A DNA stretch of 64,000 nt. Origin: the human T2T-CHM13v2.0 reference genome, Homo sapiens. Position 1 is the stretch's first letter; each line of letters begins with the position of its first letter. The DNA lies in the NCBI RefSeq assembly GCF_009914755.1, contig NC_060930.1. The stretch is one strand, 5' to 3'. Of the stretch, positions 44,201 to 54,764 are shown piece by piece. The notes under the pieces are model-generated. The model did no database searches. It was not told where the DNA came from and was given only the letters and a program-made list of their open reading frames with translations. The position numbers were made by a program, and so were the translations under genes.

Positions 44201-47200
44201 GGTTTTTTTTGTCTCTATCTCCTTCAGTTCTGCTTTGATCTTAGTTATTTCTTGCCTTCTGCTAGCTTTTGAATTTGTTTGCTCTTGCTTCTCTAGTTTT
44301 TTAAATTGTGATGTTAGGGTGTCAATTTTAGATCTTTCCTGCTTTCTCTTGTGGGCATTTAGTGCTATTAATTTCCCTCTACGCACTGCTTTAAATTAAG
44401 GTGATTTAAATGTGTCCAAGAGATTCTGGTACGTTGTGCCTTTGTTCTCACTGGTTTCAAAGAACATCTTTATTTCTGTCTTCATTTCGTTATTTACCCG
44501 TCATTCAGGAGCAAGTTGTTCAGTTTCCATGTAGTTGTGCAGTTTTGAGTGAGTTTCTTAATCCTAAGTTCTAATTTGATTACACTGTGGTCTGAGAGAC
44601 AGTTTGTTGTGATTTCTATTCTTTTACATTTGCTGAGGAGTGCTTTACTTCCAATTATGTGGTCAATTTTTGAATAAGTGCGATGTGGTGCTGAGAAGAA
44701 TGTATATTCTGTTGATTTGGGGTGGAGAGTTCTGTAGATGTCTATTAGGTCTGCTTGTTGCAGAGCTGAGTTCAATTCCTGGGTATCCTTCTTCACTTTC
44801 TGTCTCGTTGATCTGTCTAATGTTGACAGTGGGGTGTTAAAGTCTCCCATTATTATTGTGTGGGAGTCTAAGTCTCTTTGTAGGTCACTCAGAACTTGCT
44901 TTATGAATCTGGGTGCTCCTGTATTGGGTGCATATATATTTAGGATAGTTAGTTCTTCTTATTGAATTGATCCCTTTACCATTATGTAATGGCCTTCTTT
45001 GTCTCTTTTGATCTCTGTTGGTTTAAAGTCTGTTTTATCCGAGACTAGGATTGCAACCCCTGCCTTTTTTTGTTTTCCATTTGCTTGGTAGATCTTCCTC
45101 CATCCCTTTATTTTGAGCCTGTGTGTCTCTCTGCATGTGAGATGGGTTTCCTGAATACAGCACACTGATGGGTCTTGACTCTTTATCCAATTTGCCAGTC
45201 TGTGTCTTTTAATTGGGGCATTTAGCCCATTTACATTTAAAGTTAACATTGTTATGTGTGAATTTGATCCTGTCATTATGATGTTCGCTGGTTATTTTGC
45301 CCATTAATTGATGCAGTTTCTTCATAGCATCGATGGTCTTTACAATTTGGCCTGTTTTTGCAGTGGCTGGTACCAGTTGTTTCTTTCCATGTTTAGTGCT
45401 TCTTTCAGGAGCTCTTGCAAGGCAGGCCTGGTGGTGACAAAATCTCTCAGCATTTGCTTTGTCTGTAAAGTATTTTATTTCTCCTTCACTTATGAAGCTT
45501 AGTTTGGCTAGATACGAAATTCTGGGTTGAAAATTCTTTCCTTTAAGAATGTTGAATATTGGCCCCCACTCTCTTCTGGCTTGTAGGGTTTCTGCCGAGA
45601 GATCCACTGTTAGTCTGATGGGCTTCCCTTTGTGGGTAATCAACCTTTCTCTCTGGCTGCCCTTAACACTTTTTCCTTCATTTCAACCTTGGGGAATCTG
45701 ACAATTATGTGGCTTGGAGTTGCTCTTCTCAAGGAGTATCTTTGTGGTGTTCTCTGCATTTCCTGAATTTAAATATTGGCCTGCCTTGCTAGGCTGGGGA
45801 AGTTCTCCTGGGTAATATCCTGCAGAGTGTTTTCCAACTTGGTTCCATTCTCCCCGTCACTTTCAGGTACACCAATCAAATGTAGATTTGGTCTTTTCAC
45901 ATAGTCCCATATTTCTTGGAGGCTTTGTTTGTTTCTTTTTACTTTTTTTTCTCTAACCTTGTCTTCTCACTTTATTTCATTAATTTGACCTTCAATCACT
46001 GATACTCTTTCTTCCTCTTGATCGAATTGGCTATTGAAGCTTGTGCATGTGTCGTGAAGTTCTTGTGCAATGGTTGTCAGCTCCATCAGGTCATTTAAGG
46101 TCTTCTCTACACTCTTTATTCTAGTTAGCTATTCATCTAATCTTTTTTCATGGTGTTTAGCTTCCTTGCGATGGGTTCGAACATCCTCCTTTAGCTCGGA
46201 GAAGTTTGTTATTACTGACCTCCTGAAGCCTGCTTCTGTCAACTCGTCAAAGTCATTCTCCGTCCAGCTTTGTTCCGTTGCTGGCAAGAAGCTGCAATCC
46301 TTTGGAGAAGAAGAGGTGCTCTGATTTTTAGAATTTTCAGCTTTTCTGCTCTGGTTTCTCCCCATCTTTGTGGTTTTATCTACCTTTGGTCTTTGATGTT
46401 GGTGACCGACAGATGGGGTTTTGGTGTAGATGACCTTTTTGTTGATGTTGATGCTATTCCTTTCTGTTTGTTGATGCTATTCCTTTCTGTTTTCCTTCTA
46501 ACAGTCAGGTCCCTCAGCTGTAGGTCTTTTGGAGTTTGCTGGAGTTCCACTCCAGACCAGCAGAGGCTGCAGAACAGCAAATATTGCTGCCTGATCCTTC
46601 CTCTGGAAGCTTCGTCCCAGAGGGGCAGCTGCCTATGTGAGGTGTCTGTCGGCCCCTACTGGGAGGTGTCTCCCAGTTAGGCTACACAGGGGTCAGGGAC
46701 CCACTTCAGGAGGCATTCTGTCCGTTCTCAGAGCTCAGATGCCGTGCTGGGAGAACCACTGCTCTCTTCAGAGCTATCAGACAGGGATGTTTAAGTCTGC
46801 AGTTGTCTGCTGCCTATTTTTCAGCTATGCCCTGCCCACAGTGGTGGAGTCTAGAGGCAGTAGGCCTTGTTGAGCTGCAGTGGGCTCCACCCAGTTTGAG
46901 CTTCCTGGCCGCTTTGTTTACCTACTCAAGCCTCAGCAATGGCGGATGCCCCTCCCCCAGTCAGTCTCCTGTCTCACAGATGGATCTCAGACCGCTGTGC
47001 TAGCAGTGAGCAAGGCTCCATGGGCGTGGGAGCCGCCGAGCCAGGCACGGGAGAGAATCACCTTGTCTGCTGGTTGCTAAGACCTTGGGAAAAGCACAGT
47101 ATTTGGGCGGGAGTGTCCCATTTTTCCAGGTAGTCTGTGAAGGCTTCCCTTGGCTAGGAAAGGGAAATCCCCCAACCTGTTGCACTTCCTGGGTGAGGTG

Positions 47201-47389
47201 ATGCCCCGCCCTGCTTCAGCTCACCCTCCATGGGCTGCATCCCCTGTCCAACCAGTCCCAATGAGATGAACTAGTTACCTCAGTTGGAAACGCAGAAATC
47301 ACCCATCTTCTGCATCGGTCATGCTGAGAGCTGCAGACCGGAGCTATTCCTATTTGGCCATCTTGGAACCGCCACCCCACCCCCCCGTC
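41247..47389 (-). mobile_element. Full-length (~6.1 kb) primate LINE-1, L1PA5/6-like, antisense in intron 16; ORF1 and ORF2 disrupted
   Basis: TSD CAGGATTATATTCT at 41233-46 and 47390-403; poly(T); ORF2 fragments MTGSNSHIT..., ...[10 protein letters not shown]...; ORF1 start MGRNQSRKAENSKNQ at 46365; 5'UTR start GGTTCCAAGATGGCCAAATAGGAA. Confidence 0.97.
46939..47133 (+). other. L1 ORF0 homologue (64 aa, open) in the L1 antisense-promoter region
   Basis: MADAPPPVSLLSHRWISDRCASSEQGSMGVG...AGVSHFSR resembles recalled L1 ORF0 (MAGAPPPASL...VGVTRFSR); start context gcaATGg; translation not shown. Confidence 0.85.
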
Positions 47390-47476
47390 CAGGATTATAT
47401 TCTATTTAGTTTAAACTGTGCCCCCATTTCAAGGACACCATTTTTCCTTTTGGTGTGTTTCAAAGTTCTTCATAGC

Positions 47477-48089
47477 TGACCAGACACAGTGGCTCATACC
47501 TGTAATCCCAGGGCTTTGGGAGGCCAAGGTGGGAGGATCACTTGAAGCCAAGAGTTGGAGACCCAGCCTGTGCAATATAATGAAGCCCTGTGTCTACAAA
47601 AAAGAAAATTTTAATTAGCTGGGCAAGCCAGGCGTGGTGGCTCACGCCTATAATCCCAGCACTTTGGGAAGCCGAGGCAGGTGGATCATCTGAGGTCAGG
47701 AGGTGAAACCAACCTGACCAACATGGAGAAACCCCAACTCTACTAAAAATACAAAATTAGCCAGGTGTGGTAGTGCATGCCTGTAATCCCAGCTACTTGG
47801 GAGGCTGAGGCAGGAGAATCACTTGAACCCAGGAGGTGGAGGTTGCGGGGAGCCGAGATCATGCCATTGAACTCCAGCCTGGGCAACAAGAGTGAAACTC
47901 CGTCTCAAGAAAAAAATTCAGCTGGGCATGGTGGTGCACACCTATAGTCCTAGCTATTGAGGAGGCTGAGATGGGAGGATCACTTGAGCCCATGACAAGA
48001 GTTTGAGGCTACGGTGAGCTATGATTACACACCACTGTACTCCAACCTGGGTGACAGAGCAAGACACTATATCCAAGAAAAAAATAAAA
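47477..48089 (+). mobile_element. AluSp-like (47626-47917) nested in the linker of an AluJ
   Basis: agctgggca duplicated on both sides of the inner Alu. Confidence 0.9.
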
Positions 48090-48413
48090 TCTTTATAGAT
48101 AAGTCAAAAGATGTTATCTCTTTTTTAAGTGATCCATACAAGTGGCCAAAAAGCATATGAAAGATGCTCAACATCAGTAATCATTAGAGAAATGCAGCAT
48201 CAAAACAATATAACACAGTGTCATCTCACATCCATTAGGATGGCTACTATTAAAACAAAAACAAAAAAAAACAGAAAATAAGTGTTGGTGAGGATGTGGA
48301 GAAATTGAAACTGTTATAAAATGGTGCTGCCACTGTGGAAAACAGTGCGTAGGCTCCTCAAAAAATTTGAAATAGAACTACAATATGATCCAGCAATCCC
48401 ACTTCTGGGTATA

Positions 48414-53705: not shown

Positions 53706-54105
53706 TTTTTTTAATTTATTTTTATTTTCTTGAGACCAAGTCTTGGTCTGTCATGCCCAGGCTGGAGTGTAGTGGTGTGATTTTGGCTCACTGCAACCTC
53801 TGCCTCATAGGTTCAAGTGATTCTCCCACCTCAGCCTCCCAAGTAGCTGGGATTACAGGCACTCGCCACCACGCCCGGCTAAATTTTTGTATTTTTAGTA
53901 GAGACAGGGTTTCATCATATTGGCCAGGCTGGTCTTGAGCTCCCAACCTCAGGTGATCTGCCCACCTCAGCCTCCCAAAGTGCTGACATTACAGGCATGA
54001 GCCACCGTGTGCAGCCTAACAAGGTTTTTGGTTTTTTGTGTGTGTGACAGAGTCTCACTCTGTTTCTCAGGCTGGAGTGCAGTGGCTCAATTTCAGCTAA
54101 CTGCA
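53706..54105 (-). mobile_element. AluS plus a truncated Alu 3' end
   Basis: shared flank aga(g/a)tgtg(c/t)ccttg. Confidence 0.85.
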
Positions 54106-54295
54106 TAGAATGTGTCCTTGTTTTAAAACATTAGATCTTTATGTTATAATTTTATTTTCAAATAGCAATTTTCATTGCCTGAAGATAATCGGATAGTTAT
54201 CAAACTTTGCTAATAACTTCCTTGGTTCTAAAGAAGAGAGATTGATGGTTCTAAAGAAAAAAGATTTACTGAGTTTTTAATACAAAGCGAACTGT

Positions 54296-54598
54296 GGCCG
54301 GGCGCCATGGCTCACGCCTGTAATCCCAGCACTTTGGGAGGCTGAGGCGGGCGGATTACTTGAGGTCAGGAGTTCGAGACCAGCCTGACCAACATGGGGG
54401 AAACCCTATCTCTACTAAAATAGAAAAATTAGCTGGGCGTGGTGGTGTGTGCCTGTAATCCCAGCTACTTGGGAGGCTGAAGCAGGAGAATCACTTGAAC
54501 CCAGGAGGTGGAGGTTGCAGTGAGTTGAGATCGCTCCACTGCACTCCAGCCTGGGCAACAGAGTGAGACTCTGTCTCAAAAAAATAGAAATAAATAAA
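54296..54598 (+). mobile_element. AluSx ending about 46 nt upstream of exon 17
   Basis: TSD aaag(c/t)gaactgt. Confidence 0.92.
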
Positions 54599-54644
54599 GT
54601 GAACTGTTACATTAATTATATTTGAATTATTTTCTATCAAATAG

Positions 54645-54764
54645 ATACTTGGTGCTTGAAAAACTGAAGAAGGAAGACGCTGACCGAATTCATATATTCA
54701 GTTCTTTTTTCTATAAACGCCTTAATCAGAGAGAGAGGAGAAATCATGAAACAACTAATCTGTC
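54645..54764 (+). CDS. SENP6: SENP6 exon 17, 120 nt, (K)[39 protein letters not shown](S)
   Basis: aaatAG acceptor; GTC|GTAAGT; Ulp1-family motif HIFSSFFY. Confidence 0.97.

What the first reader, a model, noticed from the sequence alone, without database searches (positions are those of the whole stretch)
46939..54764. Open L1 ORF0 with a phase-matched donor predicts an in-frame ORF0-SENP6 fusion
Seen: the full-length L1 is antisense, so its antisense promoter points along SENP6. ORF0 is open from gcaATGg (46939) to TTT TCC AG|GTAGTC, a possible donor after 47129 in phase 2. The next SENP6 exon (54645) is also phase 2, so the join reads AG|A TAC TTG GTG = ...[15 protein letters not shown]1 and ORF2 of this copy are broken while ORF0 is not. 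Established: primate L1 ORF0 is transcribed from the antisense promoter and can splice to neighbouring exons to make fusion proteins. Inference: an L1-driven isoform of 63 ORF0 residues plus SENP6 from ~Y693. It would lack all SIMs, the NLS-like motif, loop-1 and LNDVIIDFY but keep the catalytic His and downstream exons, so it may be inactive, a decoy or a neo-antigen when L1 is demethylated. Caveats: the donor is weak at +4 to +6, and a 195-nt ORF can stay open by chance.
Basis: partly seen in the sequence, partly recalled or inferred. Interest (0 to 1): 0.82.

Follow-up and report, generated by a model that had tools for sequence, protein, structure and literature searches.

The report
Open L1 ORF0 upstream of SENP6 exon
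An old, full-length L1 retrotransposon lying backwards in a SENP6 intron keeps its small antisense reading frame open and in phase with the next SENP6 exon, but this arrangement is expected by chance and nothing I could reach shows that the predicted fusion is ever made.

Summary
ATG is at 46939, a 64-codon ORF0 ends at TAG 47131-47133, CAG|GT lies at 47129|47130, and the join to exon 54645 is in frame. The element is a 6144-bp L1PA6 on the minus strand, 6.2% diverged, with 13-bp target-site duplications.

The configuration is ordinary. Twelve of 29 nearest genomic relatives keep ATG and frame up to the same donor, and 17 of 29 carry the identical weak 9-mer CAGGTAGTC. The phase match is a 1-in-3 event.

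The donor is the positional homologue of the second AG|GT in young-L1 ORF0 (nt 191). The first (nt 106) is absent here. A better-scoring donor at 47192 lies after the ORF0 stop.

A published table (PMC9396940) lists this L1 as a candidate chimeric-transcript source in glioma and brain. It records 16 read pairs, not individually validated, reaching only about 51088 and not the exon. In that study only 44 of 1509 such transcripts were spliced at the 5' end.

No searched text links SENP6 to ORF0 or the L1 antisense promoter. Verdict: a formally possible, unsupported new instance of a known kind.

The parts
41246..47389 (-). Full-length L1PA6 element of 6144 bp including a 12-nt A-tail (seen as a T-run at 41246-41257 on the + strand). 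ORF1 and ORF2 are broken.
   Evidence: Target-site duplications bound it. Minus-strand ORF fragments match Exo_endo_phos (E 3.7e-10 and 5.1e-06) and RVT_1 (E 7.2e-35). Table S1 of PMC9396940 gives the RepeatMasker row hg19 chr6:76392121-76398245, minus strand, L1PA6, milliDiv 62, consensus 4-6154.
41233..41245 (.). Target-site duplication CAGGATTATATTC, copy at the L1 3' end.
   Evidence: Read directly. It is identical to the 13-mer at 47390-47402.
47390..47402 (.). Target-site duplication CAGGATTATATTC, copy at the L1 5' end.
   Evidence: Read directly.
46939..47133 (+). ORF0 of this copy, antisense to the L1 5'UTR: 64 codons plus TAG, in the start context gcaATGg.
   Evidence: The peptide is 48-56% identical to the 70-71 aa ORF0 of 9 young copies. 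There is no Pfam match.
47127..47135 (+). Candidate donor CAG|GTAGTC (exon end 47129). It is the homologue of the nt-191 AG|GT of young-L1 ORF0. The ORF0 stop TAG sits inside it.
   Evidence: It scores 0.47 bits on a recalled position matrix and -7.8 kcal/mol for the U1 duplex. The 13 SENP6 donors have a median of 4.28 and a minimum of -1.31 bits.
47042..47050 (+). Position of the first young-L1 ORF0 donor (nt 106, CAG|GTGTGG). It reads CAG|GCACGG here, so there is no GT.
47190..47198 (+). Better-scoring donor TGG|GTGAGG (exon end 47192), 59 nt after the ORF0 stop. Splicing here would give no fusion.
   Evidence: 3.5 bits and -9.8 kcal/mol. One search shows two stops in the ORF0 frame before it.
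46827..47003 (+). Upstream out-of-frame ATG ORF (58 codons) that overlaps the ORF0 start. It would act as an upstream ORF for transcripts that start before 46827.
37651..37767 (+). SENP6 exon that the fusion would lose. It encodes ...PPPP...[16 protein letters not shown].
   Evidence: It aligns to SENP7 catalytic-domain chain 3eay_A residues 21-58, E 1.3e-17.
54645..54764 (+). SENP6 exon proposed as the acceptor. It needs 2 nt from upstream.
   Evidence: It starts at residue 60 of the 323-residue chain 3eay_A. The exons at 56266 and 61488 have the same entry phase.
47121..51088 (+). Approximate window span of the published chimera ID_1260_1261 (L1 side about 47121-47370, unique side about 47375-51088).
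   Evidence: Table S2 of PMC9396940. I converted with the offset window = hg19 - 76350871, inferred from the two L1 ends and assuming no indels.

Best explanation
This is an ordinary, roughly 6%-diverged, full-length L1PA6 inserted antisense in the SENP6 intron between exons 37651-37767 and 54645-54764.

Its 5'UTR keeps the ORF0 form seen in most of its closest relatives. That form has 64 codons, a good start context, and a stop embedded in the weak donor CAG|GTAGTC. The frame is open because it is short, and its phase agrees with the next exon by coincidence.

The + strand RNA recorded over the L1 edge is low-level. It either starts at the L1 antisense promoter or is SENP6 pre-mRNA, and it mostly runs on unspliced into the intron.

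A 47129->54645 splice that would give 63 ORF0 residues, an Arg, and SENP6 from about Y693 is formally possible. If it occurs at all it is rare. Its product would lack the first ~59 residues of the protease fold.

Shown: the anatomy, the frame, the homology of the donor, the base rates, and the published read counts. Inferred: where the RNA starts and how rare the splice is.
For: - Anatomy and frame.
- Subfamily and divergence: L1PA6, milliDiv 62 (Table S1 of PMC9396940).
- Base rate: 12 of 29 nearest relatives have ATG plus an open frame to the same donor in the same phase. Seventeen of 29 share the 9-mer CAGGTAGTC. The 14-mer has 162 genome hits against 21 for the control.
- Donor strength: 0.47 bits, below 11 of the 13 SENP6 donors. 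The 47192 donor, which lies after the stop, scores 3.5 bits.
- The nt-106 donor of young copies is missing here.
- Start sites: they are reported at +300 to +500 and at +150 to +250 of the 5'UTR. By my coordinate conversion only starts at about 46878-46938 would include the ATG. Starts in the +200 class fall at or after the donor. Twelve of the 31 transcripts validated in that paper were of the +200 class.
- Class behaviour: 44 of 1509 chimeric transcripts were spliced at the 5' end.
- This locus: 16 read pairs in 11 samples, listed as not validated and not in EST literature. Its span ends at about 51088, although pairs up to 50 kb apart were allowed.
- SENP6 is absent from three other supplement sets.
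- No paper text holds both SENP6 and ORF0, L1PA or 'L1 antisense promoter' in a related sense.
- CpG decay: 13 CpGs against a median of 29.5.
Against: - The donor sits at the position of a donor-like AG|GT of young-L1 ORF0, and reviews say ORF0 donors are used.
- A constitutive SENP6 exon uses a comparably poor donor, CAG|GTACTT at 1.44 bits, and another uses ACT|GTAATT at -1.31 bits.
- In PMC9396940, 31 of 32 tested L1PA1-7 chimeras did start in the antisense promoter, so this one may too.
- The gene table supplied with the finding lists two RefSeq 'enhancer' features over 46547-47548, which is the L1 5'UTR.
- All three downstream exons share the entry phase, so any splice from 47129 into 54645, 56266 or 61488 would be in frame.
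- Only brain and glioma RNA and EST-based catalogues were seen. Embryonic stem cells, germline, placenta and drug-demethylated cells were not.
- The list of 57 fused loci in Denli 2015 could not be read.
- The matrix used for donor scores is recalled, not MaxEntScan.
Confidence: 0.72

Rival explanations
1. In cells where this L1 5'UTR is active, antisense-promoter transcripts start just upstream of 46939 and splice 47129->54645. They are translated into an ORF0-SENP6(693-1112) fusion.
For: - In-frame join.
- Start context gcaATGg, which is the first ATG for starts at 46878-46938.
- Donor homologous to the nt-191 AG|GT of young ORF0.
- ORF0-exon fusions are documented as a class: 57 of about 3200 genic loci.
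- This L1 is a published candidate source of chimeric RNA.
- RefSeq enhancer features lie over the 5'UTR (gene table supplied with the finding).
Against: - Weak donor, with a better one downstream of the stop.
- None of the listed read pairs reaches the exon.
- Only 2.9% of such transcripts are spliced at the 5' end.
- SENP6 is absent from the EST catalogue of 988 transcripts.
- No RefSeq exon lies in the L1.
- The promoter is CpG-decayed.
- The product would lack residues equivalent to 1-59 of the solved SENP7 catalytic domain, so a stable fold is doubtful.
Confidence: 0.1
2. The antisense promoter fires, but transcripts that splice use the stronger donor at 47192, or sites in the flank, and join a cryptic intronic segment near the antisense Alu at 50700-51001 or a SENP6 exon. 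ORF0 then ends at its own stop, and the RNA is non-coding for SENP6 or prone to nonsense-mediated decay.
For: - The 47192 donor scores best of all GT sites in 46939-47420.
- The published chimera spans 3968 bp from only 16 pairs. Under the authors' own criterion (size over 1000 bp) this can indicate splicing.
- Its far end maps to the unique stretch just after an antisense Alu that has a poly-T tract followed by AG.
Against: - The splice itself was not seen.
- The coordinate conversion assumes no indels.
- The L1-side mate could be mis-assigned among L1 copies.
Confidence: 0.15
3. There is no promoter activity at this copy. The chimeric read pairs are simply SENP6 pre-mRNA or retained-intron RNA that crosses the L1 edge in the gene's own orientation.
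For: - The L1 is intronic, and its antisense strand is the gene's sense strand.
- The libraries were Ribo-Zero total RNA.
- Counts are 0-3 per sample, and this locus was not validated.
- The paper's title states that deregulation follows that of the host locus.
- The 5'UTR is CpG-poor.
Against: - In that paper, 31 of 32 tested L1PA1-7 chimeras failed to amplify with a primer upstream of the promoter, which means they started inside the L1.
- 201 of 204 had long-read 5' ends in the 5'UTR.
Confidence: 0.3

Closest known systems
L1 ORF0 and ORF0-exon fusion proteins (Denli et al. 2015, Cell 163:583; known to me only through citing papers)
   Same: - Same place and strand in the L1 5'UTR.
- Homologous peptide, 48-56% identical to the ORF0 of young copies.
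- Same start context.
- A donor at the same codon position and phase as the nt-191 AG|GT of young copies.
- The subfamily lies within the reported L1PA2-8 range.
   Different: - 64 codons rather than 70-71, because a TAG lies in the donor.
- The first donor (nt 106) is absent.
- The remaining donor has lost the +5 G (GTAGTC against GTGCGT).
- No transcript or peptide evidence exists for a fusion at this locus.
L1 chimeric transcripts driven by the antisense promoter, such as L1-MET and LCT13, and the CLIFinder catalogue (PMC9396940; PMC4908685)
   Same: The L1 is a full-length L1PA1-7 element with a 5'UTR. It is listed in Table S2 of PMC9396940 as chimera ID_1260_1261 in SENP6.
   Different: - It was not individually validated and has low counts.
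- It is not in the EST-based catalogue.
- Unlike L1-MET, no annotated transcript starts in it (gene table supplied with the finding; L1-MET as XM_006715990.2).
SENP6/SENP7 catalytic domain (Ulp1-type SUMO protease; PDB 3EAY, 7R2E)
   Same: The retained part keeps the catalytic His region (...AAHWFLAVV...) and everything downstream of it.
   Different: The join falls at residue 60 of the 323-residue crystallised SENP7 domain. This removes the PPPP loop and the LNDVIIDFY segment. From recalled knowledge of the fold, I expect the product to be inactive and probably unstable.

Membership tests
L1 ORF0 | An ORF on the antisense strand of the 5'UTR of a primate L1 (L1HS or L1PA2-8), downstream of the antisense promoter. 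| tested here: met
   ORF 46939-47133 (+) lies inside a minus-strand L1PA6, at about consensus 439-245.
L1 ORF0 | Peptide homologous to the 70-71 aa ORF0 of young L1. | tested here: met
   31-35 identities over 63-64 aligned residues against 9 young copies. Those copies were found with the published ORF0-reverse primer.
L1 ORF0 | Two splice donor sites inside the ORF. | tested here: not met
   Only the nt-191 site has GT (CAG|GTAGTC). The nt-106 site reads CAG|GC. My equating of the two AG|GT sites of young copies with the published SD1 and SD2 is an inference, because Denli 2015 was not readable.
L1 ORF0 | Transcribed and translated. | not testable with these tools
   No expression, ribosome-profiling or proteomic data could be queried.
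Antisense-promoter L1 chimeric transcript (LCT) | [quoted passage not shown] | tested here: inconclusive
   Table S2 of PMC9396940 lists 16 chimeric read pairs at this L1, with LCT_validated FALSE. The start site at this copy is unknown. Pre-mRNA is an alternative.
ORF0-exon fusion | ORF0 donor in frame with a downstream gene exon. | tested here: met
   191 nt to the donor, plus an exon that needs 2 nt, gives ...[12 protein letters not shown] with no stop through the exons in the window.
ORF0-exon fusion | Observed splice junction between the ORF0 donor and the exon. | tested here: not met
   - The published chimera span ends at about 51088, not at 54645.
- SENP6 is absent from the supplements of PMC4908685, PMC6639357 and PMC10879037.
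- No text hits were found.
- Junction databases were not available, so this is absence in a limited sample only.

The most novel reading that the evidence does not exclude
In cells that de-repress middle-aged L1s, such as early embryo, placenta, germline and some tumours, this L1PA6 acts as an alternative SENP6 promoter. Its weak nt-191 donor splices to exon 54645, or to 56266 or 61488, all of which are in frame. The result is an ORF0-tagged, N-terminally truncated SENP6 that lacks its SUMO-interaction region and the start of the protease fold. ORF0 protein has been reported near PML bodies. Such a protein could be drawn to SUMO-rich nuclear bodies as an inactive decoy, or could supply a junction neo-epitope.
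Probability: 0.06. Interest if true: 0.55.

Novelty: new member of a known kind. Interest (0 to 1): 0.22.

Why it matters
If the junction were real, it would add SENP6, a SUMO-chain protease, to the short list of genes with an L1 ORF0 fusion. It would also give a testable case of a retrotransposon-supplied N-terminus on a truncated enzyme.

As it stands, the locus mainly shows how often this configuration arises by chance. About four in ten same-age L1 copies keep ORF0 open, and one acceptor in three matches the phase. Sequence-only predictions of ORF0 fusions therefore need junction evidence before they carry weight.

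Tried and rejected
- **Papers not held:** Denli 2015, Matlik 2006 and Speek 2001. The published positions of SD1 and SD2, the list of 57 fused loci and the original start-site map were therefore not seen. 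One query failed on term format.
- **The SpIRE paper** (PMC5860796, passages) gave nothing on antisense donors.
- **SENP6 in supplements:**
  - none in the 10 files of PMC4908685;
  - none in the 5 files of PMC6639357;
  - none in the 9 files of PMC10879037;
  - one row in PMC9396940.
- **Paper tool closure:** The supplements of PMC10619931 and the per-locus splicing call for ID_1260_1261 were not seen.
- **Text searches:**
  - SENP6 + 'L1 antisense promoter': 2 papers, both unrelated, where SENP6 appears only as a recurrent gene-fusion partner;
  - SENP6 + L1PA + 'chimeric transcript': 0;
  - SENP6 + LINE-1 + chimeric: 4 listings, none relevant by title, and only PMC9380957 was read in passages;
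  - SENP6 + L1PA: 0;
  - SENP6 + ORF0: 0;
  - SENP6 + 'transposable element' + 'alternative promoter': the same 2 papers.
- **Pfam:** nothing for the ORF0 peptide.
- **Acceptor scan of 47390-54644:** a crude scan gave 3 sites (49799, 49871, 53409). None explains the distal mate, so I draw nothing from it.
- **Not possible here:** MaxEntScan, ape orthologues, population variants, CAGE, junction databases, Ribo-seq and proteomics.
- **Selection on ORF0 at this copy:** considered and rejected, because the base rate among relatives explains the open frame.

Full report
**Observation.**
- The + strand has gcaATGg with the A at 46939.
- The frame stays open for 64 codons to TAG at 47131-47133.
- The last two sense codons and the stop sit in TTT TCC AG|GTAGTC, so a GT follows base 47129.
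- From the ATG to 47129 is 191 nt, which is 63 codons plus 2 nt.
- Joining the annotated SENP6 coding exons of the window gives one open frame. In it, exon 54645-54764 begins with a single base that completes a codon.
- The proposed join therefore reads AG|A (Arg) followed by YLVLEKLK. It stays open through all downstream exons in the window. The native join is ...[19 protein letters not shown].
- The exons at 56266 and 61488 have the same entry phase, so skipping would also stay in frame.

**What the element is.**
- A 13-bp direct repeat, CAGGATTATATTC, lies at 41233-41245 and at 47390-47402. It brackets 6144 bp that start with a 12-nt T-run on the + strand. This is an L1 on the minus strand with its A-tail and target-site duplication.
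- Minus-strand ORF fragments match the endonuclease family (E 3.7e-10 and 5.1e-06) and reverse transcriptase (E 7.2e-35). They are split over several pieces, the longest being 212 aa. The ORF1 start fragment ends after 78 aa.
- Table S1 of Pinson et al. 2022 (PMC9396940; I read its supplement rows) carries the RepeatMasker line for hg19 chr6:76392121-76398245. It reads minus strand, L1PA6, 6.2% divergence, consensus 4-6154.
- Both ends of that interval map onto the window with one offset (window = hg19 - 76350871). They fall on the T-run and on the end of the masked stretch at 47374. I therefore take it to be this element.

**Is the open ORF0 more than chance?**
- A search of the window's own assembly with 46900-47374 gave 6377 first-look candidates, of which 40 were scored. 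I fetched the best 30, including the window itself.
- Of the 29 others (87-90% identical), 12 have ATG and an open frame up to the homologous donor in the same phase.
- In the remaining 17, two have lost the ATG, three are frame-shifted, and the rest have stops.
- Seventeen of 29 carry the identical 9-mer CAGGTAGTC, with the stop inside it. Ten carry a CAGGTAC.-type site.
- Six of the 29 have a 110-codon ORF0 that runs across both donors (five of them start with ATG), and two more have frames of 107-108 codons.
- The 14-mer around the donor occurs 162 times in the genome, against 21 for the reversed control.
- The 64-codon form and its weak donor are thus shared by most of its closest relatives, and an intact copy is the state of about four in ten. 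A phase match is a 1-in-3 event.
- Criscione et al. 2016 (PMC4908685, passages) cite about 3200 genic ORF0 loci, of which 57 were seen fused. Many in-frame configurations are therefore expected without function.

**Relation to the known ORF0.**
- The ORF0-reverse primer printed in PMC7746726 hits 856 sites in the assembly.
- Of the 12 copies fetched, 9 have a 70-71 codon ORF0. All nine carry AG|GT sites at nt 106 and near the 3' end. In eight the sites are CAG|GTGTGG at nt 106 and CAG|GTGCGT at nt 191. In the ninth, the 70-codon copy, they are CAG|GTGCGG at nt 106 and CAG|GTGCGT at nt 188.
- The window's peptide is 48-56% identical to them.
- Its donor is the positional homologue of the nt-191 site, in the same phase. 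The nt-106 position reads CAG|GC here.
- Reviews state that ORF0 has two donors that allow fusions (PMC4859970 and PMC13517631, passages). That the two sites I see are those donors is my inference, since Denli 2015 was not held.

**Donor quality.** I used a position matrix recalled from memory, not MaxEntScan.
- CAG|GTAGTC scores 0.47 bits. This is below 11 of the 13 annotated SENP6 donors in the window (median 4.28). It is above ACT|GTAATT (-1.31) and near CAG|GTACTT (1.44).
- Its U1 duplex energy is -7.8 kcal/mol.
- The best GT site in 46939-47420 is TGG|GTGAGG at 47192 (3.5 bits, -9.8 kcal/mol). It lies after two stops in the ORF0 frame, so splicing there gives no fusion.

**Promoter and start sites.**
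- Pinson et al. report antisense starts at +300 to +500 and at +150 to +250 of the 5'UTR. Of 31 validated transcripts, 19 were of the first class and 12 of the second (section read).
- By my conversion, only starts at about 46878-46938 include the ATG. For those starts it is the first ATG.
- Starts upstream of 46827 would meet an overlapping out-of-frame ATG first.
- Starts of the +200 class fall at or after the donor.
- The copy holds 13 CpGs in 475 bp (observed/expected 0.35), against a median of 29.5 (0.715) in 12 young copies. Control by DNA methylation is likely to matter less here than in young L1s. That last point is an inference.
- The gene table supplied with the finding lists RefSeq enhancer features over 46547-47548. 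I could not identify the assay behind them.

**Expression evidence.**
- Table S2 of PMC9396940 lists chimera ID_1260_1261, gene SENP6, on this L1.
  - The L1 side is hg19 76397992-76398241 and the unique side is 76398246-76401959.
  - Read pairs are 2, 1, 3, 2, 2, 1, 1, 3 in eight gliomas and 1, 0, 0 in three control brains.
  - The flags are L1wi5UTR TRUE, LCT_validated FALSE and LCT-EST literature FALSE.
- In window terms, the L1-side reads lie at about 47121-47370, so they read through both donors. The unique side ends at about 51088.
- The method allowed mates up to 50 kb apart. A pair reaching exon 54645 would have been kept, and none extends that far.
- In the whole study, 44 of 1509 such transcripts (2.9%) showed 5' splicing.
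- The 3968-bp span from so few pairs meets the authors' size criterion for possible splicing. Its far end lies in the unique stretch after an antisense Alu at 50700-51001. I could not see the read-level data.
- Because the L1's antisense strand is the gene's sense strand and the libraries were total RNA, pre-mRNA is a live alternative. Against it, 31 of 32 tested L1PA1-7 chimeras started inside the L1.
- SENP6 does not occur in the supplements of the EST catalogue of 988 transcripts, of Jonsson et al. 2019 or of Lanciano et al. 2024.
- No searched text joins SENP6 with ORF0, L1PA or the antisense promoter in a relevant sense.

**The predicted product.**
- The lost exon 37651-37767 aligns to residues 21-58 of the solved SENP7 catalytic domain (3eay_A, 323 residues, E 1.3e-17). 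Exon 54645 starts at residue 60.
- The fusion would drop the PPPP loop and the LNDVIIDFY segment, and would keep the catalytic His region.
- From recalled knowledge of the Ulp1 fold, I expect an inactive and probably unstable protein.

**Verdict.** The finding is best filed as an unsupported candidate member of a known class, ORF0-exon fusions. Junction and cap data would settle it quickly.

Noticed in passing
L003, L009, L018, L023, L026, L027 (110 codons); L028, L029 (107-108 codons): Eight of the 29 closest relatives of this L1 5'UTR carry a long ORF0 of 107-110 codons that runs across both donor positions. Both donors are therefore in frame and in the same phase. This sister type has CAGGTAC. 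instead of CAGGTAGTC at the first site. I do not know whether this long form is described in print.
   Followed up: partly
window 54645-54764, 56266-56358, 61488-61915: Three consecutive SENP6 exons share the same entry phase, and the first two are 120 and 93 nt long. Any upstream donor in that phase stays in frame whichever of them it joins.
   Followed up: yes
window 40987-41232 and 47403-47480: The L1PA6 seems to have been inserted into an older L1 fragment lying in the + orientation. The flank at 41150-41232 and the + strand ORF at 40987-41118 read like L1 ORF2 endonuclease-region sequence. This is by eye only and was not tested.
   Followed up: no
window 50700-51088: There is an antisense Alu with a poly-T tract followed by GAG|AT at about 50717, and a GTG|GTAAGC site at 51012|51013 just after it. 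The far end of the published chimera ID_1260_1261 maps here (about 51088). A cryptic Alu-linked exon fed from the L1 is possible but unshown.
   Followed up: partly
window 25781 and 36096: Two constitutive SENP6 exons use poor donors, CAG|GTACTT and ACT|GTAATT. They score 1.44 and -1.31 bits on the recalled matrix.
   Followed up: no
window 46547-47548: The gene table supplied with the finding lists two abutting RefSeq 'enhancer' features of about 500 bp that cover the L1 5'UTR and its flank. I could not establish their assay or cell type.
   Followed up: no
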